NCBI GenBank assembly: GCA_937903325.1
Contig: CALCZR010000058.1
Location: forward strand, 65,034-129,033
Source: an uncultured Candidatus Saccharibacteria bacterium
GTDB lineage: Bacteria; Patescibacteriota; Saccharimonadia; Saccharimonadales; AWTP1-31
Direction: 5' to 3'
DNA length: 64,000 nucleotides
The notes beneath the pieces were generated by a model that worked only from the letters and a program-made list of their open reading frames with translations, made no database searches and was not told the DNA's origin. Below are positions 13,660 through 44,566 of the stretch, in pieces. Position 1 is the first letter of the stretch; each line of letters starts with the position of its first letter. The position numbers were made by a program, and so were the translations under genes.

Positions 13660-14604
13660 ATGGAGTCATTCAATCTCATCCAGTTCTATCAGAAGTTCGG
13701 TACTGAAAAACAATGCCAGAACTTCTTGTATAAGGCTCGCTGGGTGGATGGTGTAACCTGTCCGAAGTGCGGTGAGATTAATGTTAAGACCTATAAACTA
13801 GCTAGCGGTCGTATAAAGTGTGCCAGTTGCCGTAATACTTTTACCGTTCGTACTCGCAGTGTCATTGAAGACAGCCCAGTACCACTCCAGAAGTGGTTCC
13901 TAGCAATCTACTTGTGTGGCAGCTACAAAAAAGGCATCTCCTCAATTCAGCTCAGTAAGTATATTGGCGTCACGCAGAAGACTGCTTGGTTCATGCTTCA
14001 ACGTATCCGCTACGTCTTTGAAAACGACAGCTTTGAGCTACTGAACGGTGAAGTTGAAATGGATGAGGCCTACATCGGGGGCAAAGACAGCAACAAACAC
14101 GCGCACAAGAAACTAAAGGCTGTCACTGGCAAAGGTGCACAAGGTTTTGGTAGCAAGAACAGTAAAGCTCCAGTTGTTGGCATGGTCGAACGTGGTGGCC
14201 AGTTGCACGCTATCGCTACAAAAGATACTGGCAGCAAAACACTCATGACCTTAGCCCGCATACATATAGACATTAACGCCACGATCTACACAGACGAACA
14301 TATGCCCTATCGAACACTGCCTAAGATCGGCTTTAAGCACGAAAGCGTTAATCACGGCGTTAAAGAATTTGTAAACGGCATGGCCAGTACTAACACGACC
14401 GAGTCGTTTTGGTCACATTTAAAACGAGGCATTAATGGTATTTACCACCACGTCAGCACCAAACATCTGCAACGTTATTGCGATGAATACAGCTACCGTT
14501 GGAATACCCGTGAGCTAACTGACGGTGAACGGTTTGAGGACTGGTTTAATCACCTAAACGGCAAGCGACTAACCTACAGCAGCCTCGTTGCTAAAAAGAA
14601 CTAA
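13660..14604 (+). CDS. IS1595-family (ISXO2-like) DDE transposase
   Basis: N-terminal zinc ribbon CPKCG..CASC, then GISSIQLSKYIGVTQKTAWFMLQRIR, DEAYIGG, IYTDE and NTTESFWSHLKR. The promoter has its TTGACG -35 inside the left repeat, then 17 nt, TAGAAT, 6 nt and the ATG. Confidence 0.9.
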   Translation: MESFNLIQFYQKFGTEKQCQNFLYKARWVDGVTCPKCGEINVKTYKLASGRIKCASCRNTFTVRTRSVIEDSPVPLQKWFLAIYLCGSYKKGISSIQLSKYIGVTQKTAWFMLQRIRYVFENDSFELLNGEVEMDEAYIGGKDSNKHAHKKLKAVTGKGAQGFGSKNSKAPVVGMVERGGQLHAIATKDTGSKTLMTLARIHIDINATIYTDEHMPYRTLPKIGFKHESVNHGVKEFVNGMASTNTTESFWSHLKRGINGIYHHVSTKHLQRYCDEYSYRWNTRELTDGERFEDWFNHLNGKRLTYSSLVAKKN

Positions 14605-14818
14605 ACTTACCTACTGATACCCAACGTATCTTTCTTGAAATGCCCCTACATATTCCTCCTTTCTTTTCTCCCTCTCTTTCTATATAAATATAGAAGAGAA
14701 CAGATTAATTGAGTGATGTAGGGTTATGAGTAGATGTTAGGTGTAAGTTTTGTGAGTTGTATGGTCTGTAGTGTTGAGTGTAGTTTTGGTGAATTAGTGA
14801 GTACCGGTAAGTGATGAT

Positions 14819-15655
14819 ATGGGTGAAGTTAAGTATCGAAGACCATTGAATAAACAGCAGATTAGAACTCTACATTTACTGTATTGGTACCGCTTTTGTA
14901 CGAGCAAACAACTTGCTAGATCTTTTGACAAAGCCAGTCCCAAAGCCATCCAAAACAAACTGCAGATACTGGAAGCCCAAGAACTTATTAGCAAGCGCTA
15001 CGATAAGTCCTACAAGTTAGCTGGACGATCTGCTGAATACTTCATTACCCCAAAAGGTGCTCGAGCACTGGAAAAAGCCAACCCTGATTCAACTAATGCT
15101 TGGGCAACTAAGAGCCTGTATAAGAATAAAACAGTTTCAGACGACTTTCTCAAACACTGTATCGCTGTAACTGAAACGGCTCAAAGACTCCGAGAAATAT
15201 ACGGTGACAACAAAAAACTACACATACTCCCTAAAAGTTATATGGCGCAATGCGACCATTACCCAAGCTGGACACCCGACCTACATCTTGAGATACATGG
15301 CACAGGTGAAACACCAACCAAACACTACTTTCTAGATGTATGGGATGACACCAAACCATTCTTTGTAAGTGTCAGGAAAACCAGAAACTACGCTAACTTC
15401 AAGGATAGTGGTGACTGGCAAGAAGACGAACCGTACCCAGCAATCTCAGCTATCTGTAAAGATGAACGAACCCAGAAGAAGCTAAACCGACAAATGAAAC
15501 GTATCTCCGACGAACAATGGGATGATGAGTGGGTGTTTACAACCACGACCAGGCAACAGCTCGAGCATGCAACAAGAGCAATTGAGAAGATATGGTATGT
15601 CGTCGGAATGGGTGAGCAGAGGTCGCTAATACGAGTACAAGATACCGAAGATTAG
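14819..15655 (+). CDS. replication-relaxation-family-like protein (winged-helix N-terminus)
   Basis: LNKQQIRTLHLLYWYRFCTSKQLARSF..LQILEAQELISKRY matches the replication-relaxation pattern by eye. A paralogous gene occupies the same position in transposon 2. Confidence 0.65.
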   Translation: MGEVKYRRPLNKQQIRTLHLLYWYRFCTSKQLARSFDKASPKAIQNKLQILEAQELISKRYDKSYKLAGRSAEYFITPKGARALEKANPDSTNAWATKSLYKNKTVSDDFLKHCIAVTETAQRLREIYGDNKKLHILPKSYMAQCDHYPSWTPDLHLEIHGTGETPTKHYFLDVWDDTKPFFVSVRKTRNYANFKDSGDWQEDEPYPAISAICKDERTQKKLNRQMKRISDEQWDDEWVFTTTTRQQLEHATRAIEKIWYVVGMGEQRSLIRVQDTED

Positions 15656-15760: not shown

Positions 15761-17521
15761 ATGCAAAGCATCCTTAGCTCACTCAATAACCTTACTAAAA
15801 CAAACAAACTCGTACTCGCCACCTTCGCCTTCCTGGCGGTGTTAGCGTTTGGAGGTGGAAGGGCCCATGCAGCAAGTCTTACGGTTGGCGGTGGCTGCAC
15901 GCTCCCTATTGCCATTAACTCAGTCAATGCAGGATCAGTACAAGTAGGCTGTGGTTCAAATACTTCTGGTGTCTATGGAACTAATGACACTATTACATTG
16001 CCAGCGGGGACTATTACGCTTTCTGCGGATCTTCCGCACATTGAAGACAAGGCGGTTAGTGTTATTGGAGCTGGCAAAAATACAACCACAATTGATGCTG
16101 ATGGCTACGCTGGGTTCTATATTGATGCATATCCTGGGCCGTCAGGTGTCTATAGTCACGTACTCAGAGACTTTACTATAACGGGCGCAGCTACGGCGGG
16201 TATTATCGCGCTGGACGCAGATACATTCACGCTCGAGAACATGGTGGTTACCGACTCAACAATGGGGGTATTTATCCGTGCCATTCATACGATAGTGACA
16301 AACTCCAATATCATCAATAATACTAATTCGAGTGTTAACGACAACTGGATCGAAGGTACCTTTGGGAGTTCTCTTGCCGGGCTAGGCATAGTCCCCCAGG
16401 GTGCGTCCTCAAGCGACATCCCGTCTGTAGATATTACAGGCAGCGTAATTAGTGGCAACCAGTCTGAGTCCGCAGGACTTTCAGTACATTTCTTTGCAAA
16501 TACACAGTCCGGCAATGTTGACAGTCTGAGTTTTCATATGGACAACACCACAATATCTGACAATATTGCTGAAAAGTGGGCTGGTGCTATTCTGTTCGAA
16601 GAGGGCGGAACAACATCTGTTGTTGGGGTTGACCTAACACTTGACGCTGTTACTATCTCGGGTAACTCGGTGGAGGTTCAGGATGCCGACCCGCTCGTAG
16701 ACCCCTTCCAAAGCAAACCATATGTTTCGGGATTTATCTTTAACGGTACACTTGAAGACACTCGGAACCTTACTAATGTGACATCGGCATACAATACCAT
16801 TATCAATGATATGGATAACCAATTGACCGTTGCCGGGTTCATTGGGAGCCTATCTCCTGATAGTGCAGGTTTAACTTTTACAAATGCCACTATAGTCGGT
16901 AATGAGGTTACGCAGTCACAGCTTGGAGCGTTCTTCCAGGACTTTCTAGCCAGTGGAGTTAACGCCGCCTTCTTTGTACACACAACCGATCCTAACGCTC
17001 CAGATATAAACAACGCTGCAAGCGCACAAAATAGCTTGGTGGCTGGGAATTCGCGAAACGGTGATGTAGGAAGTTGTATACAGGGCGATAAGTCGGCGCT
17101 TGGACTCTCCGGCATGATGGATCTAACACCCACCAGTCTTGGCAACAACATCACCGATGATCCGAACTGTACCGGATACACCGTAGTGTCAAATATCCTC
17201 TCGACGCTTGGTCCATTACAAGATAACGGTGGCCCGGTAGAAACTATCGCCTTGCTTGACGGCTCTCCAGCCATCTCCGCTGGTGGTGCGGTCCTCGGTG
17301 TGACTACCGATGCTCGTGGTATCGCCCGTCCTAGCAGTTGTGTATCTGTTGGTGCCTTCCAATTCGAAGGTGCTGTGTGCGGCACTTCTACAACCAACAA
17401 TGGCACGAATGCTGGTGCTCCTAACACCGGAATAGGCTCAGTTTCCAATACACTGAACGCTCTGGCCAGTCTCGTTGGGTTAGCTACCATTAGCTATACA
17501 CTTCGTAAACGTGAGGTATAG
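15761..17521 (+). CDS. secreted parallel beta-helix surface protein with C-terminal APNTG sorting signal
   Basis: Signal peptide, then a GGGCTLPIAINSVN motif (CSLREA-like). Repetitive Gly/Asn/Thr-rich beta-helix-type sequence follows. The C-terminus is APNTG, a hydrophobic stretch, then RKREV. Confidence 0.8.
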   Translation: MQSILSSLNNLTKTNKLVLATFAFLAVLAFGGGRAHAASLTVGGGCTLPIAINSVNAGSVQVGCGSNTSGVYGTNDTITLPAGTITLSADLPHIEDKAVSVIGAGKNTTTIDADGYAGFYIDAYPGPSGVYSHVLRDFTITGAATAGIIALDADTFTLENMVVTDSTMGVFIRAIHTIVTNSNIINNTNSSVNDNWIEGTFGSSLAGLGIVPQGASSSDIPSVDITGSVISGNQSESAGLSVHFFANTQSGNVDSLSFHMDNTTISDNIAEKWAGAILFEEGGTTSVVGVDLTLDAVTISGNSVEVQDADPLVDPFQSKPYVSGFIFNGTLEDTRNLTNVTSAYNTIINDMDNQLTVAGFIGSLSPDSAGLTFTNATIVGNEVTQSQLGAFFQDFLASGVNAAFFVHTTDPNAPDINNAASAQNSLVAGNSRNGDVGSCIQGDKSALGLSGMMDLTPTSLGNNITDDPNCTGYTVVSNILSTLGPLQDNGGPVETIALLDGSPAISAGGAVLGVTTDARGIARPSSCVSVGAFQFEGAVCGTSTTNNGTNAGAPNTGIGSVSNTLNALASLVGLATISYTLRKREV

Positions 17522-18869: not shown

Positions 18870-18916
18870 GGTGGTTAGTGACCCCTGCAGATAGATAGCA
18901 ATCCTTCATCTAAGCA

Positions 18917-18945
18917 TTGCATGAACCGCCTCTGTTAGGTATAAT
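18917..18945 (+). promoter_or_regulatory. sigma70-like promoter upstream of tRNA-Asn
   Basis: TTGCAT, a 17-nt spacer, then TATAAT. Confidence 0.5.
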
Positions 18946-19026
18946 TTGTCGGTCGCTACTTTGCGTAGCATGTACCTTTATTTTACAGGCGATGAGAACT
19001 TGAGTATTCAAGCTTCTCATTGTTAT

Positions 19027-19101
19027 TCGGGAGTAGCTCAATGGTGGAGCAAGAAGCTGTTAACTTCGAGGTTGCCGGTTCGAGTCCGGCCTCCCGAGCC
19101 A
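19027..19101 (+). tRNA. tRNA-Asn: tRNA-Asn (anticodon GTT), CCA encoded
   Basis: Cloverleaf folded by hand. Acceptor TCGGGAG/CTCCCGA; D arm GCTC-AATGGTG-GAGC; anticodon loop CTGTTAA; T arm GCCGG-TTCGAGT-CCGGC; then G and CCA. Confidence 0.9.
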
Positions 19102-19114
19102 AGTATCGAACCAA

Positions 19115-19149
19115 AATAACAGAGGTGAATAGCCTCTGTTATTTTTATT
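19115..19149 (+). terminator. rho-independent terminator after tRNA-Asn
   Basis: An 11-bp stem (AATAACAGAGG / CCTCTGTTATT) with a 7-nt loop, followed by TTTATT. Confidence 0.75.
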
Positions 19150-19186
19150 GGGTGGACACAGCGACGGATTTCGAATCGTCTGATTA

Positions 19187-19215
19187 TTGACATGGGTCAA
19201 TGGTTATGCTAATAT
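19187..19215 (+). promoter_or_regulatory. sigma70-like promoter of the ABC-F leader region
   Basis: TTGACA, a 17-nt spacer, then TAATAT. Confidence 0.55.
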
Positions 19216-19244
19216 AGTTTAAACGTAAAGGAAGAACGTATCCA

Positions 19245-19268
19245 ATGATAGATCTAATCAACAGCTAA
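19245..19268 (+). CDS. putative 7-codon leader peptide (MIDLINS)
   Basis: AAGGAAG lies 10 nt upstream of the ATG. The ORF sits between the promoter and the attenuator hairpin of the ABC-F gene. Confidence 0.45.
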   Translation: MIDLINS

Positions 19269-19327
19269 GATGTCACGCTAACAGGCGCAAACTTTGCTAT
19301 TGATTTGATTTCATTACTAAAATTCTG

Positions 19328-19375
19328 AAAACCGAGCGTGCGTGACATTTGTCTGCCTGCTCGGTTTTTCTTTTG
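19328..19375 (+). terminator. attenuator terminator upstream of the ABC-F gene
   Basis: Stem AAAACCGAGC (19328..19337) pairs with GCTCGGTTTT (19359..19368), followed by a TCTTTT run. The hairpin ends about 25 nt before the ABC-F ATG. Confidence 0.65.
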
Positions 19376-19397
19376 GAAAGAAATAGAGGATAAAGTA

Positions 19398-20858
19398 ATG
19401 GCTTTTTTACGTCATATATACAAATCATTCCCGAATAAGACTGTTCTTGAGGACGTCGACCTGGCCATTAACCGTGGCGAAGTAGTCGCTCTAATTGGTG
19501 AAAACGGAGCTGGTAAAACAACTCTGTTGGAGATTCTCAGAGGAAAGCTCAAGCCCGATGCTGGAAGCGTTCAAGTTTCTGGTGTCGTTGGGTATGTTCC
19601 ACAGGAAGCAGTACTCGGGAAAACAATTCGACAAAGTTTTTCGGCTACGACGCAGTCCTGGCAGATTAATTACGCCCTGGGGCGAACAGGCTTAGGTGAC
19701 AAAAATCTAAGCACACCGATTAGCGTGTTAAGCGGCGGCCAGAAGACTCGGCTAGCCTTCGCAGGAGTTCTGGCGCAAGATCCAGAACCGTCCCTATTAC
19801 TACTGGATGAGCCGACTAACAACCTGGATGCAAACGGCCTGGTTTGGCTGGCGGATTTTGTTCGCAGCTTCGACGGAGCTGTGTTGCTCGTTAGTCACGA
19901 CCGTGAGTTCATTAACAACACGGCAACCAAAATTGCTGAGTTACACAACGGAAAGCTGACTCAATACGGTGGAGATTACGATTTTTACCGAGAGCAGAAA
20001 GGACTTGAGGAGGCCGCAGCACGGATGCGTTACCAACAGAATATCGAAGAGCGTAGCCACCTCACTAAAGCTATTACGGCTCAAAGAGAAAACAGTAAGC
20101 ATGCTCACGAACACTTTAAGTCATCCGATAACGATAAGATGCAGAACCACTACTTTAAGAACAGGGTGACTGTTAAGTATGGCAAGCAAGCTCGTATGCT
20201 GGAAAAGCGACTCGACCAGTTAGAAGAAGTCGAACGACCGGAATTCGCCAAAGATTACCGCATTGTTTTGGGTGGTGAAGTAGATAGTGGCAAATTGGTG
20301 CTTAGCTTGAACGAAATCTGCAAAGGATTTCCAGAACCAGTGCTTGACAGTGTGGATCTAGAAATCCGCGGCGGAGAACGAGTTCATGTGCAAGGCAAAA
20401 ATGGCAGCGGTAAAACTACACTGCTTACCATTGCTGCTAGACAGTCTAACCCAGATAGCGGGGAAGTCAGTTACGGCACAAGAATCAGCGTCGGCTATTT
20501 CTCACAGAATGTAGACGGCCTAGACCATCATACAACCGGGCTAAATAACCTTGTTGCAACCGAAGCTCAGATGACCGATATCTTCCGCGAAGCTCGCAGT
20601 CTAGAGCTAACTGACACTGACCTAAAGAAACCAGTGAGTGAGTTGTCGCGTGGTCAGCAGGCCAAGCTTGGCTTTGCCAAGTTGCTGCTTGGGTCACACC
20701 ATCTGCTGATCCTGGATGAGCCAACCAATCATCTGGACATTCCAACCAGAGAGCAGATTGAATCTGCTCTACTACAGTACCGTGGCGCAGTTCTGTTTGC
20801 GTCGCACGACAAGTACTTTGCCCAGAAACTAAAACCAACCAAGGAATTACAGCTATGA
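19398..20858 (+). CDS. ABC-F family ATPase (two ABC domains, no TM; ARE-like)
   Basis: Two Walker A motifs (GENGAGKTT and GKNGSGKTT) and two signature motifs (LSGGQ and LSRGQ), joined by a charged interdomain linker. GAGGA lies 8 nt upstream of the ATG at 19398. Confidence 0.9.
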   Translation: MAFLRHIYKSFPNKTVLEDVDLAINRGEVVALIGENGAGKTTLLEILRGKLKPDAGSVQVSGVVGYVPQEAVLGKTIRQSFSATTQSWQINYALGRTGLGDKNLSTPISVLSGGQKTRLAFAGVLAQDPEPSLLLLDEPTNNLDANGLVWLADFVRSFDGAVLLVSHDREFINNTATKIAELHNGKLTQYGGDYDFYREQKGLEEAAARMRYQQNIEERSHLTKAITAQRENSKHAHEHFKSSDNDKMQNHYFKNRVTVKYGKQARMLEKRLDQLEEVERPEFAKDYRIVLGGEVDSGKLVLSLNEICKGFPEPVLDSVDLEIRGGERVHVQGKNGSGKTTLLTIAARQSNPDSGEVSYGTRISVGYFSQNVDGLDHHTTGLNNLVATEAQMTDIFREARSLELTDTDLKKPVSELSRGQQAKLGFAKLLLGSHHLLILDEPTNHLDIPTREQIESALLQYRGAVLFASHDKYFAQKLKPTKELQL

Positions 20859-22030
20859 ATTTGCTAAAACATAACATGCGGGCTTTGTTCCGCTTTAGCT
20901 TCTTGTTCAGTTTCCAGCCCTACTATGGGGTACTGATACTGTACTTCGCACATATACTCCATTCATACACGCTTGGTACTAGCGTTTGGGCATTCGTTCA
21001 GATCGCCCAAGCAGCCTTGGAGATTCCCACCGGTGTTGTGTCCGATCGCTTTGGTAGAGTTGTTAGTTTACAGATCGGGACGTTGGCCAACCTGGCTGCA
21101 TTACTAATCTACGCTCTGTCGCCAAGTTATGTGCTTCTGTTGGTGGGCGCAGCACTGCAAGGACTTAACCTTGCCTTGTTCAGCGGCAACAACGACGCCT
21201 TAATGTATGACTCAGCACGACATGCCGGAGAAAAAGAAGGATTCCATCATCATTACAGTAAGATTAATATTGCCATGGAGGTCGCCGGCGCCATCTCTGC
21301 GATTATCGGGTCGATCCTGGCTGCCATCTCCTACTCCTTAGTATTGTGGATATCGGTAGTACCACAGGTTCTTGCCATGCTGGTTGCTACTACATTGATT
21401 GAACCACCAAGAACCACAGCGTTGTCTGGCAATATTCTGAGTCACCTTGGCGATGTCTATAGGTATTACAAAAAGAACGCCCACTTGCGCATGCTAAGTG
21501 TAGCTTCAATCATGAGTGAAGGAATAGGTGGTGCTTCGTGGAATATGATGCCAGCGTATTACCAACAGTACGTTCCGTTGTCATACGTCGGAAGCCTCAG
21601 GTCGGCTAACTATATTTGGAGTACAGTTGGTTTTAGAATAAGTGGTTGGTTCATGAAGCGGTTTAAACCAGCAACCATTTTGCTCGTCAGTGAGGCGTAT
21701 TCCCGAGCGGTTTCATTTATAGCTTTGGCAGTATCTTCGGTAGCTTCACCATTCATTATGGCATTCCATGGTCTACCATACGGCCCTAGTGACACCGCTA
21801 AACAACATCTACTACATGAAGAGTTTACCGATGCACAACGGGCGACCATGGCTTCGCTGAACTCGCTAGCAAGCAGCGGAGTCTATGCAGCTTTCTTGGT
21901 GCTAACTGGCTATCTAGCCGACAAATTCAGCCCGAGAGTTTCGATATTGGTCTGCAACATCTGTTTGCTACCGGTGTTTTTCATTACTCGAGCAACCTTC
22001 AGATCAAAGTTAAATGGTAATATTAAGTGA
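20855..22030 (+). CDS. MFS transporter
   Basis: About 12 TM segments and an MFS loop motif (GVVSDRFGR). The start overlaps the ABC-F stop (ATGA). Confidence 0.85.
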   Translation: MNLLKHNMRALFRFSFLFSFQPYYGVLILYFAHILHSYTLGTSVWAFVQIAQAALEIPTGVVSDRFGRVVSLQIGTLANLAALLIYALSPSYVLLLVGAALQGLNLALFSGNNDALMYDSARHAGEKEGFHHHYSKINIAMEVAGAISAIIGSILAAISYSLVLWISVVPQVLAMLVATTLIEPPRTTALSGNILSHLGDVYRYYKKNAHLRMLSVASIMSEGIGGASWNMMPAYYQQYVPLSYVGSLRSANYIWSTVGFRISGWFMKRFKPATILLVSEAYSRAVSFIALAVSSVASPFIMAFHGLPYGPSDTAKQHLLHEEFTDAQRATMASLNSLASSGVYAAFLVLTGYLADKFSPRVSILVCNICLLPVFFITRATFRSKLNGNIK

Positions 22031-22602
22031 TGAGTAGTAAAAATAAGACATATATTGTGTTCCTGCTCGGCTATCCGGGCGTAGGTAAACGAACCGTGGG
22101 TACTGCACTTGCAAAGCTCCTTGACGGAGTATTAGTGGATAACCAGCTGATCAATGTTCCGATACTCACTCTTTTTAAGTGGGATGGGAAGTTTCAGTTG
22201 CCACCAAATGTGTTTGATTACACAGCACCAATTAGGCAGGCGGTCCTTAAAACCATTGAAGAGCTGGCGCCTGCAACAAATAGCTACATATTCACAAACG
22301 TACTTGAGGCTGAGGACGCCGACGGTTCACAAAAAGAGTATGACAAGCTGCGGGCACTCGCAAAGCACCGTGGTTCTGTGTTCCAGGCTGTGCGTATAAC
22401 CTGTGACCCAGAAGTACAGATTACTAGGATCGATACTCCGGATCGGCGCGCACGGTTAAAGGGCTCCGATCCCGAAGGCTACCGTTGGTTCACCCAGAAT
22501 GTGCCACTATGGTGGCCGCCCGAAGATGATCTACTTACAATTGACTCAACGAGTGCAACTCCTGAGGAGTCTGCCAAACTGATCTATGATCACTTGCAGT
22601 AG
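22030..22602 (+). CDS. P-loop kinase-like protein (AAA_33 / chloramphenicol-phosphotransferase-like)
   Basis: Walker A in LLGYPGVGKRT. The start overlaps the MFS stop (TGATG). Confidence 0.6.
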   Translation: MSSKNKTYIVFLLGYPGVGKRTVGTALAKLLDGVLVDNQLINVPILTLFKWDGKFQLPPNVFDYTAPIRQAVLKTIEELAPATNSYIFTNVLEAEDADGSQKEYDKLRALAKHRGSVFQAVRITCDPEVQITRIDTPDRRARLKGSDPEGYRWFTQNVPLWWPPEDDLLTIDSTSATPEESAKLIYDHLQ

Positions 22603-29612: not shown

Positions 29613-30857
29613 CTAGTCGCGGTGTAGCGCCTCAATTGGATCGATCATAGTAGCTCTTCGAGCAGGGAAGAAGACGACAATAAGGCCGATAAGAGCACTG
29701 AGAGCAAGAGTTATGAGTATCAGCTCGGCCGAGAAGCTAAAGGCCGTTATATGGTCCTTAACGCCGTTATGCTGGGCGTACCTATTGAGTGCAAAGTTAC
29801 CGATAACCGACAAGGTTATAGCCCCGATAACACCGAATAATCCACCAAGGAACGATAGCAGTACCGCTTCAGTTGTAAATAGCCGACGGATGTCTTGCTT
29901 ACGAGCACCAAGCGAGATCATGAGAGCAATCTCACGAGTTCGCTCAATGAGCGAAATGGTCAGAGTGTTAAACATACCCAAGATCGCAATCACAATACCG
30001 ATACCGCCAAAGCCTACAAAGACGTATCGCAGCAGATTAAAGACCTGGTCAATCTGTTCTAGCGTGTCTTGCGGTGAGGTTGTCGTAAAGCCAAGGCTCT
30101 CAATAGCCTTGCGCACACTGTTGATCTTGTCCTTGTCATTAACCACTACTTTCAGCTGGGTGGCGTCTGCTGTTCCGACTTGTTCAAAGTTCTTAGCAGC
30201 GATAAAAGATTCAGCCCGTGACTCACTCTCGAATACCGCCCCAATAACAAAGTCTTTGGTAACAGTCTTCTTTTCACCCTTGTCATTCACCGTATCGAAC
30301 GAAAGATTAACTGACTTATCGATAGCCTTACTGTTATCACTAAAGCCCAGCACGTTAGCTAATGAATTATTAATAATAATCTTGTTGCCGGTATCGGCAT
30401 CAAAGTTATTACCAGCTGTATACTTCAGCCCGCTTAGATCTACAAAATTGGTATCAGCACCATATACTACCGTCTCGGTCTGGGAGCTCTGCTGCTTAAT
30501 CTTACCAGCGGTGTTATACGACCTACCCATCTCATCAACGCCGCCCATACCACTAATCTGGTTGTAAGCTTCGGTGTTTAGCTTGAGGATCTTAGAACGC
30601 GGGGACGTAACATCTATGGTTTGCACTGAACTAGATCCTACCACTTGCTGGCTTACGAGGTTCTGCAGTCCAAAACCAAATGAGAAGAGGAACACAATAG
30701 AACCAATACCAATAATCACAGCTAGAACGGTGAGCATAGTACGGAGCTTGTTAAAGAACAAGTTCTTGTAGGCTAGCCGCATAAGAATATGGAACTGAAT
30801 AACACCACGCTTGTCGGCGGCACGAAATTCACTACCGTTACGTACGTTATTAACCAC
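29613..30857 (-). CDS. MacB/FtsX-type ABC transporter permease with large extracytoplasmic domain
   Basis: NKLRTMLTVLAVIIGIGS in TM1, then a ~230-aa loop, then the FtsX domain (LISLGARKQDIRRLF). The GTG at 30857 has GAGGTGAT upstream; an alternative ATG lies at 30782. Confidence 0.9.
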   Translation of the reverse strand: MVNNVRNGSEFRAADKRGVIQFHILMRLAYKNLFFNKLRTMLTVLAVIIGIGSIVFLFSFGFGLQNLVSQQVVGSSSVQTIDVTSPRSKILKLNTEAYNQISGMGGVDEMGRSYNTAGKIKQQSSQTETVVYGADTNFVDLSGLKYTAGNNFDADTGNKIIINNSLANVLGFSDNSKAIDKSVNLSFDTVNDKGEKKTVTKDFVIGAVFESESRAESFIAAKNFEQVGTADATQLKVVVNDKDKINSVRKAIESLGFTTTSPQDTLEQIDQVFNLLRYVFVGFGGIGIVIAILGMFNTLTISLIERTREIALMISLGARKQDIRRLFTTEAVLLSFLGGLFGVIGAITLSVIGNFALNRYAQHNGVKDHITAFSFSAELILITLALSALIGLIVVFFPARRATMIDPIEALHRD

Positions 30858-31635
30858 CGATCACCTCTTTTGCTGACTTACTTAGCTTCATCATACTAGC
30901 AACTTTGTTAAACTGCTGGTTAATGTCCGCACGGTAACCACCTTGATCCTCGGTCACGACACCGTCACTAATATACAAACGGTGGTCACTAAGCGGCAGA
31001 TAGTCGCTGTTGTGAGTAACCAGAATAATAGTGGACTGGTGTTCGCTCTTGTAGCTGGTAATAAGCCGCATAATCATATCACCATTCTTGCTATCGAGGT
31101 TTCCGCTTGGCTCGTCAGCTACGAGTAGCAGGGGAACAGAGACCGTGGCACGGGCCATGGAAATACGTTGTTGCTGACCAACAGACAAGACCTGGGGACT
31201 GTAGTTAGCATACTTATCGAGCTCAACACGCTTTAGACTGTCTCGAGCCTCCCTAAAGGCAGCATCCCGATCATGTCCGGACAAGTACAATGGAAGAGCA
31301 ATGTTCTCGAGTACGTTAAGACTGGATACCCAGTTATTGGTCTGGTAGACAGTGCCGAAGTTTCGAGCGCGGAACTTGGCCCGATCGTTCTGGTTAAGCT
31401 TGTATAGGTCTTCGCCGTCCACAATAATCTGCCCAGAACTCGGCGCCAACAGTCCGAGAATCATATTCAGAATCGTCGTCTTACCACTACCGGATGGACC
31501 ATAGATGATCGTGAAGGTATTACGCTCAATCGTAAAGCTCACATCCTTCAGAACTGAAACGGTTCCTTCTTGGGTGGTGTACTGTTTGTTGACATTGACC
31601 AACGAAACAAGAGTATTACTAGCGGGTTTACTCAT
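30850..31635 (-). CDS. ABC transporter ATP-binding protein (MacB/LolD-like)
   Basis: Walker A GPSGSGKTT, Q-loop, signature LSVGQQQR and Walker B LLVADEP. Confidence 0.95.
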   Translation of the reverse strand: MSKPASNTLVSLVNVNKQYTTQEGTVSVLKDVSFTIERNTFTIIYGPSGSGKTTILNMILGLLAPSSGQIIVDGEDLYKLNQNDRAKFRARNFGTVYQTNNWVSSLNVLENIALPLYLSGHDRDAAFREARDSLKRVELDKYANYSPQVLSVGQQQRISMARATVSVPLLLVADEPSGNLDSKNGDMIMRLITSYKSEHQSTIILVTHNSDYLPLSDHRLYISDGVVTEDQGGYRADINQQFNKVASMMKLSKSAKEVIGG

Positions 31636-31676: not shown

Positions 31677-34600
31677 TTAATTTCGCCTTCCAAATATCGA
31701 CTCAAGGGCATTGAAGATGATAGTAAAGACATTTTCAGAGGCGCGGCCCACTACTACCGTCTGATTATCTGAATGTGAAATATTACGCGCTTTATCTGCC
31801 GAGAAGACTTGCAAGTGGTAGATACTCGAAACCTGTACGTCAGACAACACTACGACATGGTCAGTCGTCAGGTTATTGTCTTCGCCAGTACGATTCGTGA
31901 GTGCACCCGTTTGGCCAATACCGTAGCCTACCTGGCTAGTAGATAGCTCATCCGTCTTCCAGGAAACCACTACTTGACCTCGAGCCTCTGAGCCAGTTCC
32001 ACGAACAGACGATTCTATAACTACCTCAGATATCTTTGGTGGGCGAGTATCCAGGGCCGTCTTAAAGGTCCGTACTTCGGAGCTCGCACTAATACCTTCG
32101 GCATTCACCGATATAGCCTGTAAGGCGTAGTCAGTGTCATCGACAAGGCCAGTAAGGACAATGCTGTGCTGCGTGACAAGTGCGGAATCAACAGCGTCCT
32201 TAGGTGGTGTGCTCTGTGGTCCGTAACTTACCCGCGAAGTAGCCGGTACGTTGGTATCCCAGGTAATCTGCTGAGTAGAACTTGGAGCGTCTGCGACGGG
32301 CTGGAATCGCAAGTTTGTAATCTTTGGTCGTGCCTTGGTGGTAAAGGTTTGTACATCCTTGATATACAAGTTGCCGTCAGCGTCCACTAGATCAATCCGG
32401 AAATAGAACTTCGTATCGTCAGATAAACCGTCAAGGTTAACTGAGTACGTAGAAGTTGTAGCTGCCGTATCAATAGTCTTAACAGCACCGAAGGACTCAC
32501 TGGCACCGTAACTCAGTCGAGCCTGACTAGCCCCCGTAACTGAGAAGGAAATAGTTGCACCGGAAACACTAACACCTGTTATCGCCACTTCACCAACATT
32601 CGGAGCGGGAAGCGTCGTAAAGCTCTTCTCCGGGCTGGTGCCCGTATTACCATCACTGTCCGTCCACTTGGTTACATAGTAGTAGGTCGTAGAAGGCTGC
32701 AGGTTAGTCAGATCTACCTGGTGGTCAGGTTGTTGGGCAGAATTACCGATCTCTTGCTGGGCGTATTGCCCCGGCGCTGTGCCAATAGCGACCTTACTGT
32801 CGCTGTCTCTATCTGTTGTCCAGGTGATGGTAGCCTTCTTGGGGCCAATATTCGTTGCCTTTGGTTGGCCAGAAACTGTTAAGTTAGCAGGACTAGTGAA
32901 GCGACCGGTTGGCTTCTTGGTTGCCACGTTGCTCGGAACACCACAGTTATTAGCGTTGTCACAAGCTCGGACGTAGTAATAGTAGGTAATTTGGGACAGG
33001 CCAGCATCGATAAAGCTCAGGTTAGAAGGTGAGGTAGTACCCACCTGCGTGAAGCTAACATTGTCGGTGGAACGATAAATCTTGTACGAGGCTATGCCAC
33101 TCCCTGGCTGCGACGGCGCTACCCAAGAGCTTGCCAATTTCCAACTGGAGGTTGCTCGTGTAGAGACATCTGCTAGATCCATGTCGGTAGGAGCACCAGG
33201 AGCCGTCGTACTGGCAGAGAAGGTGACGGTAGCAACATTGGCCGCACTAAAGTTACCCGGCTGGTCCTTGGCAACTATCCGCATCGTGTTTACACCTTGC
33301 TCAGTAGCGTACGGTCCGGCCGCTAGCTGAGTTACGCCAGCACCCGTCCAGTGACAATTACTCTGGTCATCTTCAATGGGCTCATTCACTGTCCAACAAT
33401 AGTTTATATCTGGGGTCGACCCAGAGAAACTAGAGGGAGCATCCCACGTAAACGAGAAATTATTACTAGTACTGCTAGATGGGGTAACCTGTAGGTTCTG
33501 TGGTGCAGAAGGAGCCTGCACAGAAATGACCACGTAAGGGGCTGATGAAGCCATTCCTTCGACATTACCGGCATTATCTACTACGGCCATAAGCACCCCG
33601 TTAACTCCAGAACCGCCTGTAGTGCCGTCATCGAGTCGAGCAGCGTCGGCTGCCACAGTGGTAAAGCCTTGAGCACTCATAGGCAATACATCACTAGTAT
33701 CCCGTAAATCCCCCGACGTATGGTTTGCACCGTACCAGTTCATATCGTCTTCGTCACATCCTGCAAAGTTTTCGTCTACCTTTGCAACACAGTACTTAGC
33801 ACCAGCGATACCTGAGTGTTCATCAACAGCTTCAAGTAGTCCCGGCACAATGGTCCATGCAGTGGTGAATATCTTGCTGTTCTGGACCGTACCCGGCGTG
33901 TTATAGAAAACCATGCCGTCCGGTTCTTCATCATCAAACCTAAAACTGGTAGTAATCAGCGGATCACTCTGCGCGTTGCCAGCGTTGTCTACTGCAGCGA
34001 TTCTAACGTAGTAGCGCTCACCAGACGTCATGTTGCCCGGCGCCGCCTGAGCAAGATCTAGATACGTGTTACGCGTACTAAAACCACAATCCCCTACGAT
34101 ATAATTATTAAGCGCGTCTGAACCCAATACACCCTGTTCACCTAGACTACCCGGGTCTTCCTGTGTACCTACATACACACAGTAGCCAGCGATACCTGAA
34201 TCAGCATCAGTTGCGGCCGTCCAACTTACATAGGGCTTGAGTCGGACCCAACCATCTGGTGCTACAACCGGACCAGAGCTAGATTTTTTAATAGTCAGAC
34301 CACTTGGTACGCCTGGGGCATTCGTGTCATTAGAGTACTCGATACTAACGGAGTTAACACTAATGTCAGGCGTAGCCTCGTCGGACAGAATAATCTGGTA
34401 CTGCACATACCGCTCATTCAATGCTACACATGCAGTAGCCGTGATAGCATCGCCACTAGCAAGTAGTGGGCAGTCATTAAAGTCCTTAGCACCAGCCATA
34501 GAGTCGCTTGCTGAAGTACGTACCCGTATACCCGATATTCCTGTCCCACTTGTATTGTAGATGACATTACCGAAGTAGGGGTGTTCGTCAAAGTCAACGA

Positions 34601-43114: not shown

Positions 43115-44446
43115 CTAGAACCTTTTGATACTCCCGTGGTTATTTCTTCTCAGTACAGTAATACTCAGACGATATCGTAGTAAGGGTAAGGTGACTATTT
43201 TGATGTGGTGGCCAAAGGTATAAGGAATAGTCGAGTCTTCCTCAGTAAGTGGTTTCTTATGACGTCGGTAGTCTATATAGATATATACCGTTAAAGCCAC
43301 TAACAAGCCAATGAAGAGTAGACTTGGAAGAAGAACGCCGCCAGTAACTGCTAATGTTGGCTGTTTTGTATCGGGGCTGGTAGGACCCGTTCCTGGGTTT
43401 GGTGTTGGCGTCGGGCTGGGTTCTGGCTCTGGTTCGGGATCTGGGATGAGGCGAGATACACCAATCTTATTCACGCCTGGAGCGGATTCTACAAACCAAA
43501 TACTGCCGTCGGTGCCTGCGGCAATACTATTGGGATATGATGCTGGCGTTGGAATATCATACTCAGTGACCGTACCAGAGGTAGTGATCATAGCTACCTT
43601 GTTATTAAATAGTTCGGTTACCCAAAGATTGCCGTCTGAACCTACCGTAATGTTTCTGTAATAACCAAATGTTTCACCCGTCAATCCTGGGACTGCAGTG
43701 AAGTTTCCATCAACGGTAATCTTTCCAACTTGATAGATGCCTGTACCTGCTACACTGACCCATAGATTACCATCTGGGCCTTGGGTAATGCCAGATGGAT
43801 ACCCGCTTCCACTCGGCAGGCTGTACAGTGTGACGTTTCCATCAACGGTGATCTTTCCAACTTCCTGCGTTCCAAATTTGGTAAACCACAGATTTCCATC
43901 CGGACCGGTTGTTATGGTACCTAGATCAAACGTACCGGTATTAGCAACGGGATACTCGGTAACCACTCCGGCAGTAGTCATTTTACTTATCTTCCCTTCC
44001 TCTGACTGGGTAAACCACAGATTTCCATCCGGACCGGTTGTTATGCTATTTAAGTATGCATTAAGGTTGCCGACGGGATATTCAGTAACAACTCCTGAAG
44101 TAGTGATCTTACCTATTTTATCTATATTCCTTTCTACAAACCACAAATTACTATCCGGGCCAACGGTTATCTCGTTTAACCCGGAACTTGGGGTTGTGAC
44201 TGGATACTTCGTTATGCTTCCGCTAGGCGTAATCACCCCGATCTCGTTAGAACCTACATCGGTAAACCACATATTATTATCGGGGCCACGAACAATTGAC
44301 CCAAGGCCTACGTTGTCGCCACTGACAGGATATTCTTGAATTTCACGTCCTGCGGCGTAGACGGCAGGGAGCAACAATGATGCTGAAAGAATCATGCAAA
44401 ACGCCAGAAGCGATAAGCTGACAATCCGATGTTTCATTGTAATCAT
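43115..44446 (-). CDS. secreted seven-repeat beta-propeller protein (Vgb/streptogramin-lyase-like repeats) with LAVTG-type anchor
   Basis: Signal peptide, then seven G[PST]D[GSN][NS][LMI]W[FV] repeats and a Pro-rich linker (PEPEPEPSPTPTP). The end is LAVTG, a TM helix and RRHKK. I chose the ATG at 44446; the track's TTG is at 44482. Confidence 0.8.
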   Translation of the reverse strand: MITMKHRIVSLSLLAFCMILSASLLLPAVYAAGREIQEYPVSGDNVGLGSIVRGPDNNMWFTDVGSNEIGVITPSGSITKYPVTTPSSGLNEITVGPDSNLWFVERNIDKIGKITTSGVVTEYPVGNLNAYLNSITTGPDGNLWFTQSEEGKISKMTTAGVVTEYPVANTGTFDLGTITTGPDGNLWFTKFGTQEVGKITVDGNVTLYSLPSGSGYPSGITQGPDGNLWVSVAGTGIYQVGKITVDGNFTAVPGLTGETFGYYRNITVGSDGNLWVTELFNNKVAMITTSGTVTEYDIPTPASYPNSIAAGTDGSIWFVESAPGVNKIGVSRLIPDPEPEPEPSPTPTPNPGTGPTSPDTKQPTLAVTGGVLLPSLLFIGLLVALTVYIYIDYRRHKKPLTEEDSTIPYTFGHHIKIVTLPLLRYRLSITVLRRNNHGSIKRF

Positions 44447-44566
44447 ATCCCTTATGGTATTTGATGGGTAGAGACTCGTCAATGAAGTAGCATACTAGAG
44501 CATCAGACTTGATGCAACATACAAATATGCTTATACTTAATGCTAAAGATGTGAGGTGAAATAAAT

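What the first reader, a model, noticed from the sequence alone, without database searches (positions are those of the whole stretch)
19187..19397. Leader-peptide attenuator in front of an ABC-F (ARE-like) gene
Elements found between the promoter and the ABC-F ATG at 19398:
- Promoter: TTGACA, 17 nt, TAATAT.
- A Shine-Dalgarno-preceded 7-codon ORF, MIDLINS (19245..19268).
- A 3-codon ORF, MSR (19270..19281).
- A 10-bp-stem terminator with a T-run (19328..19375).

In addition, ATGTCACGC (19270..19278) is perfectly complementary to GCGTGACAT (19340..19348) inside the terminator loop. CACGCT (19274..19279) can also pair with AGCGTG (19335..19340), which invades the terminator stem.

This is the classical design of ribosome-stalling attenuators that switch on antibiotic-resistance ABC-F genes (the Vga/Msr/Lsa/VmlR class) when a ribosome-targeting drug is present.
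Basis: partly seen in the sequence, partly recalled or inferred. Interest (0 to 1): 0.6.

Follow-up and report, generated by a model that had tools for sequence, protein, structure and literature searches.

The report
Leader-peptide attenuator before Saccharibacteria ABC-F gene
A roughly 175-base RNA leader with a 7-codon mini-gene, two competing RNA pairings and a transcription terminator sits before a ribosome-protection-type ABC-F gene in a Saccharibacteria (TM7) genome; it is conserved across that lineage and is most likely a sensor of stalled ribosomes, of a well-known kind but not described for these bacteria in the literature I searched.

Summary

The window comes from a Candidatus Saccharibacteria (CPR) genome. 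Sixteen aligned leaders (twelve distinct) from relatives whose ABC-F is 52-100% identical all carry the same layout:
- the promoter;
- an SD and a uORF of exactly 7 sense codons ending in UAA;
- a hairpin that pairs the uORF with a near-invariant downstream segment (P1);
- a two-part terminator.

Three helices covary:
- P1;
- the apical hairpin of the terminator;
- a long-range helix between the bases just after the uORF stop and the 5' strand of that apical hairpin.

That strand therefore has two mutually exclusive conserved partners, which is the signature of a switch. The 'MSR' mini-ORF is not conserved; those bases act through RNA pairing.

The ABC-F and six relatives pass NCBI's ribosomal-protection ABC-F model. 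They fail the EttA/Uup models and every named ARE subfamily model.

Verdict: a real, conserved ribosome-dependent transcription attenuator, a new member of a known kind. Still unproven are the inducing drug, the stall site, and how an anti-terminator that overlaps only the top of the terminator blocks termination.

The parts
19187..19215 (+). Sigma-70-type promoter: -35 TTGACA (19187-92), 17-nt spacer, extended -10 TGcTAATAT (19207-15). The inferred transcription start is near 19222.
   Evidence: scores it 10/12 plus TG. The same TTGAC(A)-17-TGnTAATAT, with a conserved GGTTATG spacer, lies at the same distance in nearly all relatives whatever gene is upstream; the -35 is degenerate in L097 and L102. 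The start site is inferred, not measured.
19228..19234 (+). Shine-Dalgarno of the uORF: AAGGAAG here, AAGGAG in most relatives.
   Evidence: In relatives it pairs with the spacer AACUUC just before the terminator (helix P0). Support for P0 is weak (p about 0.03), and it is degenerate in the window.
19245..19268 (+). Leader uORF: 7 sense codons plus TAA, encoding MIDLINS.
   Evidence: 18 of 18 loci (17 relatives' loci plus the window) have [A/G]TG + 6 codons + TAA at the same place. Variants are MIDLINS, MIDLIKS, MIDLINR, MIDRVNL, MIDIINR, (GTG)IDIINS, MTDQINS, MIVTINR and MLQNTNL.
19250..19311 (+). Anti-antiterminator hairpin. P1 pairs the uORF bases 19250-19269 with segment 2 (19292-19311, which includes the conserved CTTTGCTATTGAT). 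It encloses the small hairpin P2 (19276-79 : 19284-87).
   Evidence: It is in the minimum-free-energy fold of all 16 leaders. On the MAFFT alignment, P1 has 14 pairs, 91.7% of cells paired and 6 pairs with compensatory changes. In the derangement test 0/7337 reached the cognate sum.
19268..19278 (+). Segment 1', the 5' strand of the anti-terminator (AT) helix: aGATGTCACGC. It includes the non-conserved 'MSR' ATG.
   Evidence: It pairs with 19340-50. Cognate duplexes are -12.4 to -19.0 kcal/mol in all 16 leaders. Cognate sum -151.0 against a deranged mean of -108.3, 0/7337. The core helix is 95.5% paired with 4 compensatory pairs.
19327..19374 (+). Two-part intrinsic terminator: basal stem 19327-38 : 19358-69 (GAAAACCGAGCG / UGCUCGGUUUUU), apical hairpin 19340-46 : 19351-56, U-run 19365-74.
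   Evidence: -24.3 kcal/mol, z = -4.9. The basal stem is almost invariant in 16 leaders. The apical hairpin covaries: cognate sum -64.9 against -47.6, no derangement as low.
19340..19350 (+). 5' strand of the terminator's apical hairpin, which is also the 3' strand of the AT helix. This is the contested strand.
   Evidence: It has two mutually exclusive, independently covarying partners. It begins 1-4 nt after the basal arm in every relative.
19385..20858 (+). SD (AGAGGA, 19385-90) and coding sequence (ATG 19398 to TAA 20858, 486 aa) of the ribosomal-protection-like ABC-F.
   Evidence: NF000355, 411 bits against cutoff 380; 2x ABC_tran plus ABC_tran_Xtn; AF2 model, pLDDT 88.7.
20855..22602 (+). 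Co-transcribed downstream genes with overlapping start and stop codons: an MFS transporter (20855-22030) and a P-loop kinase-like protein (22027-22602).
   Evidence: In relatives the gene after the ABC-F varies: MFS, an APH(4)-like kinase, an AAA_33 kinase or an Exo_endo_phos protein.

Best explanation
This is a ribosome-dependent transcription attenuator that controls an ABC-F/MFS/kinase operon in a Saccharibacteria genome.

Proposed sequence of events:
1. Transcription starts near 19222.
2. By default the leader folds into one long hairpin. The uORF pairs with segment 2 (helix P1), and the bases just after the uORF stop (segment 1') are held in the small hairpin P2.
3. The downstream two-part terminator, a basal stem plus an apical hairpin followed by a U-run, then forms completely. 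Transcription stops before the ABC-F gene.
4. If a ribosome stalls early in the 7-codon uORF, with the P site at about codons 1-5, P1 cannot form.
5. Segment 1' (19268-78) is then just outside the ribosome. It captures the 5' strand of the terminator's apical hairpin (19340-50) as soon as that strand is transcribed. This makes an 11-bp anti-terminator helix far more stable than the apical hairpin it replaces.
6. The terminator cannot complete in time, and RNA polymerase reads into the ABC-F gene and the genes behind it.

The stall is most likely caused by a 50S-targeting antibiotic whose effect the ABC-F relieves. That would give induction with negative feedback, as in vmlR, cplR and msrD.

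Shown here: every element exists, is conserved and covaries; the two pairings are mutually exclusive; the ABC-F is of the ribosomal-protection type.

Inferred: termination in vivo, the stall position, the inducer, and that losing the apical hairpin is enough to defeat termination.
For: Organism and sampling:
- Homologues of the ABC-F are Candidatus Saccharibacteria proteins.
- Leaders from relatives with 52-84% identical ABC-F were fetched independently of leader sequence.

Conservation:
- All carry the promoter, the SD, a uORF of exactly 7 codons plus UAA (GTG start in L097), segment 2, and a terminator with a 21-30-nt structured insert.

Covariation on an unbiased MAFFT alignment:
- 91.1% of cells are paired, against 30-42% when partners are slid by 1-3 columns.
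- 13 pairs have changes on both sides, and 0/500 shuffles reach the observed values.
- P1 has 6 compensatory pairs. The AT core has 4 and is 95.5% paired.

Alignment-free derangement tests on 9 clade representatives:
- AT helix: -151.0 against -108.3 (0/7337).
- P1: -105.5 against -79.8 (0/7337).
- Terminator apical hairpin: -64.9 against -47.6, none as low.

Folding:
- With the uORF blocked and the transcript cut before the 3' arm, the AT helix is in the minimum-free-energy structure of the window and of nearly every relative tested for P-site codons 1-5 (L102 needs codon 4 or later).
- At P-site codon 4 it is expected at 7-14 bp in the ensemble of all 16 leaders.
- The AT helix (-12 to -19 kcal/mol) outweighs the apical hairpin (-4 to -7).
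- In a nested-structure model the barrier from the AT state to the terminator state is 13-23 kcal/mol.

The ABC-F:
- NF000355 is passed by the window protein and six relatives.
- The linker forms helices 194-239 and 247-274.
- The best structural matches are VmlR2, LsaA, Sal(B) and VmlR (TM 0.79-0.83), against 0.70-0.72 for EttA and Uup.

Context:
- The genomic setting varies and often includes mobile or defence genes and small-molecule kinases.

Precedent:
- uORF-based attenuation is the established regulation of vmlR (PMC9226507), cplR/vmlR2/lsaA (PMC10201436) and msrD (PMC10314930).
Against: - There are no expression data, so termination at 19374 and read-through are only predictions.
- The covarying AT helix overlaps only the apical half of the terminator. 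With that strand blocked, the basal 10-12-bp stem is still -10 to -17 kcal/mol.
- The AT helix plus the basal stem could in principle coexist as an H-type pseudoknot (connecting loops of 1-4 nt and 8-22 nt). How termination is prevented is therefore not established.
- In the stalled-ribosome ensemble the basal 5' arm is only 27-74% paired, with different partners in different relatives.
- At full length the terminator state is thermodynamically favoured, so the switch must be kinetic.
- The peptide resembles no characterised drug-arrest peptide. Its conservation cannot be separated from the RNA-pairing constraint on the same bases.
- The ABC-F is below the cutoff of every named ARE subfamily. 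Its sequence and fold scores against ARE proteins and housekeeping ABC-Fs differ only modestly.
Confidence: 0.7

Rival explanations
1. The device is the same, but it senses something else. It would be a homeostatic sensor of general translation trouble, such as ribosomes stuck at hard-to-translate sequences or too little ABC-F activity. The ABC-F would then be a lineage-specific translation factor rather than an antibiotic-resistance protein.
For: - The ABC-F fits no named ARE subfamily.
- Its scores against Uup, EttA and YheS are not far below those against ARE proteins.
- The clade is widespread in Saccharibacteria, with identities from 52 to 100%.
- Feedback by the ABC-F on its own leader is documented for ARE ABC-Fs (PMC10201436, PMC10314930).
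Against: - The NF000355 cutoff is passed, while the EttA/Uup/YbiT-type cutoffs are missed by a factor of 2-3.
- The linker aligns with Vga/VmlR/Msr but not with Uup.
- The genomic location varies, sits next to tRNA genes, and has integrase, recombinase and defence neighbours. The co-transcribed partners are an MFS pump or small-molecule kinases. This is the pattern Murina et al. use to flag ARE proteins (PMC6723617).
Confidence: 0.17
2. The leader is a riboswitch or a protein- or sRNA-binding element. The switch between the hairpin and the long-range helix would be set by a ligand or trans-factor, and the uORF would be incidental.
For: - A 16-nt stretch (TAGCTTTGCTATTGAT) is invariant in most relatives, more than simple pairing seems to demand.
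- The RNA helices explain much of the nucleotide conservation inside the uORF.
Against: - A start codon (ATG or GTG), an SD at a fixed distance, exactly 6 further sense codons and UAA are kept in 18/18 loci. This includes L102, whose uORF nucleotides are largely different.
- No Rfam family matches at E <= 1.
- There is no conserved multi-helix junction or ligand-pocket-like core beyond the hairpins.
- The invariant stretch is the complement of the uORF's constrained 3' half.
Confidence: 0.07
3. There is no switch. This would be a structured 5' UTR with a leaky terminator, for example one that insulates the operon from upstream tRNA transcription or stabilises the mRNA, plus a chance mini-ORF.
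For: The basal terminator stem is not touched by the alternative helix. No expression data exist.
Against: - One strand (19340-50) keeps two mutually exclusive partners, each with compensatory changes. That has no purpose in a static structure.
- The leader has its own conserved promoter in every genomic context, with or without an upstream tRNA.
- The tRNA-Asn appears to have its own terminator-like hairpin and T-run at about 19118-19150 (read by eye; not tested).
Confidence: 0.04
4. It is an amino-acid-sensing attenuator of the trp/his/ilv leader type, responding to a shortage of charged tRNA-Ile or tRNA-Asn.
For: The uORF usually has two Ile codons (one the rare ATA) and an Asn codon. The cassette lies beside tRNA-Asn in three genomes.
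Against: - There is no run of regulatory codons.
- The Ile and Asp positions vary (MTDQINS, MIVTINR, MLQNTNL).
- The operon encodes no biosynthetic enzyme.
Confidence: 0.02

Closest known systems
vmlR leader of Bacillus subtilis (uORF MIN; anti-antiterminator SL-1 / antiterminator / terminator; PMC9226507)
   Same: - A short SD-preceded uORF lies inside the 5' hairpin, which acts as the anti-antiterminator.
- A ribosome stalled early on the uORF prevents that hairpin from forming, and an alternative helix forms instead of the terminator.
- It controls an ABC-F of the ribosomal-protection type.
- The layout is promoter, leader of about 200 nt, then U-run terminator just before the ABC-F's SD.
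   Different: - There is no sequence relation, and Rfam finds nothing.
- The uORF has 7 codons, not 3.
- The covarying antiterminator pairs with the apical half of a two-part terminator, not with the base of the terminator stem.
- No NusG pause site or SD-sequestering hairpin for the main ORF could be shown.
- The host is a CPR bacterium.
msrD / mefA-msrD leaders (MsrDL, MYLIFM; PMC10314930)
   Same: - A very short leader peptide of fixed length with a strongly preferred UAA stop.
- Transcription attenuation at an intrinsic terminator.
- An ABC-F linked in one operon with an MFS pump.
   Different: - MsrDL stalls at the stop codon, and the ribosome itself physically blocks a terminator that starts right after the uORF.
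- Here the terminator lies about 60 nt downstream, and a stall at the stop codon would cover the anti-terminator strand. An earlier stall is therefore predicted.
- The gene order is ABC-F then MFS.
- The peptide is unrelated.
cplR, vmlR2, lsaA and lmo0919/vgaL leaders (uORFs MRI, MK[L/Q], MAGN; PMC10201436)
   Same: Conserved mini-uORFs found by comparing upstream regions of ABC-F homologues, each with a hairpin containing the uORF followed by a terminator.
   Different: - Those uORFs have 3-4 codons, and in cplR the terminator sequesters the main SD.
- Here the ABC-F's SD lies outside the terminator.
- The leader family is restricted to Saccharibacteria-type ABC-Fs (one search finds the core motif in none of 80 other ABC-F loci).
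ARE ABC-F proteins (ARE1 Vga/Msr/CplR, ARE2 VmlR, ARE3 Lsa, ARE6 Sal)
   Same: - Two ABC domains, no membrane domain, and a long two-helix linker.
- About 490 aa, with no arm insertion and no C-terminal extension, like Msr and Lsa.
- Passes NCBI's general ribosomal-protection ABC-F model.
- Best structural matches are VmlR2, LsaA, Sal(B) and VmlR.
   Different: - At most about 29% identical to any solved ARE protein.
- Below every subfamily cutoff.
- At most 36% identical to the best-scoring non-CPR ABC-Fs returned by a row-capped scan.
- Saccharibacteria are not mentioned in the text of the 2019 ABCF classification (PMC6723617).
- No resistance phenotype is known.

Membership tests
Ribosome-dependent (leader-peptide) transcription attenuators of ABC-F resistance genes | A short SD-preceded uORF upstream of the ABC-F, conserved among homologues | tested here: met
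   A 7-codon uORF plus UAA, with an SD, in 18/18 loci spanning 52-100% ABC-F identity.
Ribosome-dependent (leader-peptide) transcription attenuators of ABC-F resistance genes | An intrinsic terminator (GC-rich hairpin plus U-run) between the uORF and the main ORF | tested here: met
   -24.3 kcal/mol, z = -4.9. The basal stem and U-run are near-invariant in 16 leaders. This is predicted from sequence; termination itself was not measured.
Ribosome-dependent (leader-peptide) transcription attenuators of ABC-F resistance genes | The uORF lies in a hairpin (anti-antiterminator) whose disruption frees a strand that forms a structure mutually exclusive with the terminator | tested here: met
   P1, the AT helix and the terminator's apical hairpin all covary, and the AT helix and apical hairpin share one strand. 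The AT helix is in the minimum-free-energy fold of the ribosome-blocked, truncated transcripts.
Ribosome-dependent (leader-peptide) transcription attenuators of ABC-F resistance genes | The alternative structure actually abolishes termination | tested here: inconclusive
   The AT helix removes only the apical 6-8 bp. The basal stem keeps -10 to -17 kcal/mol. The nested-model barrier is 13-23 kcal/mol, but a pseudoknot route is not excluded.
Ribosome-dependent (leader-peptide) transcription attenuators of ABC-F resistance genes | Drug-dependent ribosome stalling on the uORF and drug-dependent read-through | not testable with these tools
   This needs toeprinting, Term-seq or reporters.
Ribosome-dependent (leader-peptide) transcription attenuators of ABC-F resistance genes | Homology to a described leader (vmlR, cplR, lsaA, msrDL, ermL families) | tested here: not met
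   No Rfam match at E <= 1. The peptide M-[ITL]-[DVQ]-x-[IVT]-[NK]-[SRL] is unlike MIN, MRI, MAGN or MYLIFM (PMC10201436, PMC10314930). It is therefore analogous to those leaders, not a member of any of them.
ARE-type (ribosomal-protection) ABC-F proteins | Two ABC nucleotide-binding domains joined by a linker, with no transmembrane domain | tested here: met
   Pfam: 2x ABC_tran plus ABC_tran_Xtn. The AF2 model shows two nucleotide-binding domains and a helical hairpin.
ARE-type (ribosomal-protection) ABC-F proteins | Scores above the curated cutoff of NCBIfam NF000355 and below the cutoffs of housekeeping ABC-F models | tested here: met
   411 bits against cutoff 380. EttA scores 256 against 599 and Uup 260 against 900. 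Six relatives score 402-431.
ARE-type (ribosomal-protection) ABC-F proteins | An extended interdomain linker (ARD) comparable to Vga/VmlR/Msr | tested here: met
   Helices 194-239 and 247-274. The phmmer alignments run unbroken through the linker with VmlR2, VmlR, Vga(A)-LC and VgaL but break there with Uup; the summary tables also show a single full-length stretch for MsrE. Whether the tip reaches the peptidyl-transferase centre is not testable here.
ARE-type (ribosomal-protection) ABC-F proteins | Membership of a named subfamily (Vga, Msr, Lsa, Sal, CplR, OptrA, producer type) | tested here: not met
   Vga 306 against 725, Msr 279 against 680, Sal 275 against 725, Lsa 200 against 750, CplR 248 against 780. 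It is a separate Saccharibacteria clade.
ARE-type (ribosomal-protection) ABC-F proteins | Confers resistance to a ribosome-targeting antibiotic | not testable with these tools
   This needs MIC tests after heterologous expression.

The most novel reading that the evidence does not exclude
This would be the first leader-peptide attenuator family documented in the Candidate Phyla Radiation. That would imply working coupling of transcription and translation, and drug-inducible ribosome protection, in ultrasmall epibionts that live on Actinobacteria, the main producers of macrolides, lincosamides and streptogramins.

It would also use an unusual design. The anti-terminator does not compete for the base of the terminator stem. 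Instead it clamps the 5' strand of an apical hairpin that the terminator needs to nucleate. The ABC-F would found a new ARE subfamily specific to Saccharibacteria.
Probability: 0.4. Interest if true: 0.6.

Novelty: new member of a known kind. Interest (0 to 1): 0.45.

Why it matters
- It gives a concrete, testable cis-regulatory RNA in Saccharibacteria, a lineage in which gene regulation is almost unexplored and genetic tools have only recently appeared (PMC10633639).
- It points to inducible ribosome protection as part of how these epibionts survive next to antibiotic-producing hosts.
- It adds a deeply divergent clade to the ARE ABC-F family. The CPR resistome survey does not mention msr, vga, lsa or ABC proteins (PMC8651080), and the text of the 2019 ABCF classification does not mention Saccharibacteria (PMC6723617).
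- The conserved 7-residue peptide could report a new drug- or context-specific stalling rule.
- The apical-clamp geometry offers a natural test of how much of a terminator hairpin is needed for termination.

Tried and rejected
It returned only ABC-Fs 27-36% identical from other phyla, so that single scan was wasted for leader comparison. None of those 80 loci carries the leader core motif.
2. A viral-contig scan for the invariant 16-mer gave 66 hits, none with the uORF/terminator context. These look like chance matches (my own rough estimate of the chance rate, not computed).
3. The 'MSR' second ORF is rejected. L095-L102 have no ATG there, and the length differs in L093.
4. CACGCT:AGCGTG invasion of the stem occurs only in the window, L081 and L082.
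5. CATTACT (19312-18) pairing with AGTAATG at the ABC-F start appears in the window's fold. It is kept only among close relatives, is broken in L084 and is absent in distant ones, so it is not claimed.
6. Segment 2 or the spacer pairing with the basal 5' arm as a classical '2:3' antiterminator is only weak, G-U-rich and heterogeneous, and cannot be tested by covariation because the arm is invariant.
7. The co-transcribed APH-family kinases of relatives are not macrolide phosphotransferases by NCBIfam. Their best, weak hit is APH(4)-Ia, so no drug class can be inferred from them.
8. The SD:spacer helix P0 has only marginal support (p about 0.03) and is degenerate in the window.
9. Rfam gives no family besides the tRNA.
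Full report
**What is in the window.**
Reading 18900-19560 confirms every element at the coordinates given.
- Promoter: TTGACA (19187-92), a 17-nt spacer, and TAATAT (19210-15) preceded by TG. The consensus scan scores it 10/12 with TG.
- uORF: an AAGGA-type Shine-Dalgarno at 19228-34, and a 7-codon ORF ATG19245 to TAA19268 encoding MIDLINS.
- A further ATG-TCA-CGC-TAA at 19270-81.
- A large hairpin at 19327-19369 followed by TTTTTCTTTT.
- The ABC-F start at 19398.

The simple terminator scanner missed the hairpin because its loop rule is 3-8 nt. The hairpin nevertheless folds at -24.3 kcal/mol with z = -4.9. It has two parts: a 12-bp basal stem (19327-38 with 19358-69) and a 6-bp apical hairpin (19340-46 with 19351-56).

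The minimum-free-energy fold of the whole leader adds a long AU-rich hairpin at 19250-19311. There the uORF pairs with a downstream segment (P1), and a small hairpin (P2, 19276-87) sits at the tip.

Immediately upstream lies tRNA-Asn (19027-19101), followed by what looks by eye like its own terminator hairpin and T-run. It is preceded by smpB and a NUDIX gene. Downstream, with overlapping stop and start codons, come an MFS transporter and a P-loop kinase-like gene.

**Whose genome, and which ABC-F.**
The 486-aa protein has an identical copy in the protein collection. A graded series of relatives, 85% down to 52% identical, are named Candidatus Saccharibacteria wherever a name exists.
- It passes NCBIfam NF000355 'ribosomal protection-like ABC-F family protein' (411 bits, cutoff 380).
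- It lies far below the cutoffs of EttA, Uup and the other housekeeping models.
- It is also below every named ARE subfamily: Vga 306 against 725, Msr 279 against 680, Sal, Lsa, CplR and OptrA.
- Six relatives spanning the clade give the same result, 402-431 bits.
- Against solved structures the best sequence hits are VmlR2, Vga(A)-LC, Uup, VmlR, VgaL and MsrE.
- The printed alignments run unbroken through the interdomain linker for VmlR2, VmlR, Vga(A)-LC and VgaL but fall apart there for Uup. MsrE is matched in a single full-length stretch in the summary tables.
- An AlphaFold model built on 30 family members (pLDDT 88.7) shows a linker made of helices 194-239 and 247-274.
- Its best TM-scores are to VmlR2 (0.83), LsaA (0.81), Sal(B) (0.80) and VmlR (0.79), against 0.70-0.72 for Uup and EttA.

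I conclude that it is an ARE-like ABC-F of a separate, Saccharibacteria-specific clade. It is not a member of Vga, Msr, Lsa or VmlR.

**Is the leader conserved?**
I fetched relatives through the protein, not through the leader.
- Seven metagenome loci have ABC-Fs 75-84% identical.
- Eleven further proteins, 52-72% identical, were located on their contigs.

Every one has the same leader:
- TTGAC(A)-17-TGnTAATAT (the -35 is degenerate in L097 and L102);
- an AAGGAG Shine-Dalgarno;
- a uORF of exactly seven sense codons ending in TAA. Variants are MIDLINS, MIDLIKS, MIDLINR, MIDRVNL, MIDIINR, MTDQINS, MIVTINR and MLQNTNL, with one GTG start;
- an almost invariant TAGCTTTGCTATTGAT;
- the basal stem AAAACCGAGC / GCTCGGTTTTTT around a structured insert of 21-30 nt.

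The gene neighbourhood differs between relatives. tRNA-Asn or tRNA-Leu lies close upstream in some. Others have integrase, recombinase, Mrr, BrxA or AbiU2 neighbours. The gene after the ABC-F is variously an MFS, an APH(4)-like kinase, an AAA_33 kinase or a phosphatase-like protein. The leader therefore travels with the ABC-F as one cassette.

The 'MSR' mini-ORF does not survive this comparison. L095-L102 have no ATG there, and L093 reads MSRMKA.

**Which RNA pairings are real?**
On a plain MAFFT alignment of 16 leaders (A2), RNAalifold recovers the P1 core and the basal terminator stem.

I then wrote P1, the basal stem and the long-range helix (19268-78 with 19340-50) as a pseudoknotted structure and counted pairs.
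- 91.1% of cells pair, against 30-42% when partners are slid by 1-3 columns.
- 13 pairs show changes on both sides, and 0 of 500 shuffles reach the observed values.
- P1 has six compensatory pairs. The core of the long-range helix has four and is 95.5% paired.

Because the variable parts align poorly, I also used alignment-free tests.
- The best duplex between the stretch after the uORF stop and the terminator insert is -12.4 to -19.0 kcal/mol in all 16 leaders.
- It always begins 1-4 nt after the basal arm.
- Examples are GTCACACAA/TTGTGTGAC in L095, GTCGCAC/GTGCGAC in L096 and CACACGG/CCGTGTG in L098.
- Among nine clade representatives the cognate sum is -151.0 against a mean of -108.3 for deranged partners (0 of 7337 as low). 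For P1 it is -105.5 against -79.8 (0 of 7337).
- The apical hairpin inside the terminator covaries too: -64.9 against -47.6, none as low.

The 5' strand of that apical hairpin (19340-50) therefore has two conserved, mutually exclusive partners. A static structure has no use for that, so it is the mark of a switch.

**How it most likely works.**
1. With no ribosome, or after normal translation, P1 and P2 are transcribed first and fold. They hold segment 1', the terminator then completes, and transcription stops. This is the minimum-free-energy state of all 16 leaders.
2. I blocked the uORF as a ribosome would, with the P site at codons 1, 4 or 5, and cut the transcript just before the terminator's 3' arm.
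3. Under those conditions the long-range helix is in the minimum-free-energy fold of the window and of nearly every relative tested. L102 needs the P site at codon 4 or later.
4. With the P site at codon 4, 7-14 of its base pairs are expected in the ensemble of all 16 leaders.
5. The helix is far stronger than the apical hairpin it displaces (-12 to -19 against -4 to -7 kcal/mol).

Geometry sets the stall position. The helix starts at the last bases of the stop codon. A ribosome sitting at the stop codon would therefore cover it, whereas one stalled at about codons 1-5 leaves it free. This is the anti-antiterminator / antiterminator / terminator logic shown experimentally for vmlR (PMC9226507). 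It is analogous to cplR (PMC10201436) and msrD (PMC10314930).

**The weak point.**
The covarying anti-terminator overlaps only the top of the terminator.
- With that strand blocked, the basal stem alone still has -10 to -17 kcal/mol.
- The two helices could coexist as an H-type pseudoknot.
- At full length the terminator state is favoured.
- In a nested-structure model the barrier from the anti-terminator state is 13-23 kcal/mol. That would trap the RNA long enough, but the model ignores pseudoknotted routes.
- Pairing of segment 2 with the basal arm is weak and inconsistent between relatives.

My argument that the apical hairpin matters for termination is evolutionary: the hairpin is itself maintained by compensatory change. 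This step is inferred, not shown.

**What is sensed.**
Nothing here identifies the inducer.
- The best specific protein model is Vga.
- The neighbouring kinases are only APH(4)-like or generic P-loop kinases.
- The same window carries a gene of the virginiamycin B lyase family.
- Cultivated Saccharibacteria are reported to grow on Actinobacteria (PMC10633639).

A 50S-targeting natural product is the best guess. A general translation-stress sensor for a lineage-specific ABC-F remains a serious alternative.

**Novelty.**
- No Rfam family matches.
- Full-text searches found no paper that treats ABC-F proteins of Saccharibacteria.
- The text of the 2019 ABCF classification does not mention Saccharibacteria.
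- The CPR resistome survey does not mention msr, vga, lsa or ABC proteins.

The principle is well known. The family, the host lineage and possibly the geometry are new, so I rate it a new member of a known kind.

Noticed in passing
window 43115-44482 (-): A 455-aa protein with a strong match to the virginiamycin B (streptogramin B) lyase family (Pfam Vgb_lyase, 269 bits). It is a possible second streptogramin-related defence gene in the same genome. A CPR resistome survey reports many vgb-like genes in Saccharibacteria (PMC8651080).
   Followed up: partly
window 19027-19101 (+); L084 1603-1677; L095 951-1025; L099 2206-2290: The cassette lies just downstream of tRNA-Asn in the window, with tRNA-Asn also upstream in two relatives. 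In L099 it lies directly after tRNA-Leu. Elsewhere it is flanked by integrase (L100), recombinase and Mrr (L101), BrxA (L098) or AbiU2 (L090, L092). This suggests a mobile or hot-spot-inserted cassette.
   Followed up: partly
window 13660-15655 (+): An IS1595-family transposase (13660-14604) followed by a Replic_Relax (replication-relaxation) protein (14819-15655) and a 586-aa protein with no Pfam match (15761-17521), about 2-5 kb upstream of the cassette.
   Followed up: no
window 31677-40465 (-): Two tandem giant proteins (1526 and 1403 aa) with PA14, DUF2341, fibronectin-III and purple-acid-phosphatase-N domains, probably surface proteins. Next to them is a MacB-type ABC permease (29613-30857), with an uncharacterised adjacent ORF at 30850-31635.
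   Followed up: no
Proteins P0087 (650 aa) and P0094 (685 aa): Two relatives of the ABC-F are about 160-200 residues longer and carry AAA_33/Zeta_toxin/KTI12-type kinase domains. The ABC-F appears fused to the P-loop kinase that follows it in many loci. This may be a real fusion or a missed overlap of stop and start codons, and it hints at a functional link between the ABC-F and the kinase.
   Followed up: no
Loci L090, L092 and L095, flanks of the ABC-F: Relatives carry clusters of small-molecule-modifying genes around the cassette: APH-family kinases (best but weak match APH(4)-Ia), an AAA_18 kinase, a Pol-beta-type nucleotidyltransferase and a double GNAT acetyltransferase.
   Followed up: partly
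window 19193-19209 and the same position in relatives: The promoter spacer keeps a conserved GGTTATG just before the -10 box in most relatives, even where the rest of the spacer varies. This is more than an extended -10 (TG) alone requires.
   Followed up: no
window 19312-19318 with 19394-19400: CATTACT is complementary to AGTAATG, which covers the ABC-F start codon, and the two pair in the minimum-free-energy fold. The pairing is kept only in close relatives, so a translational layer of control is possible but unsupported.
   Followed up: partly
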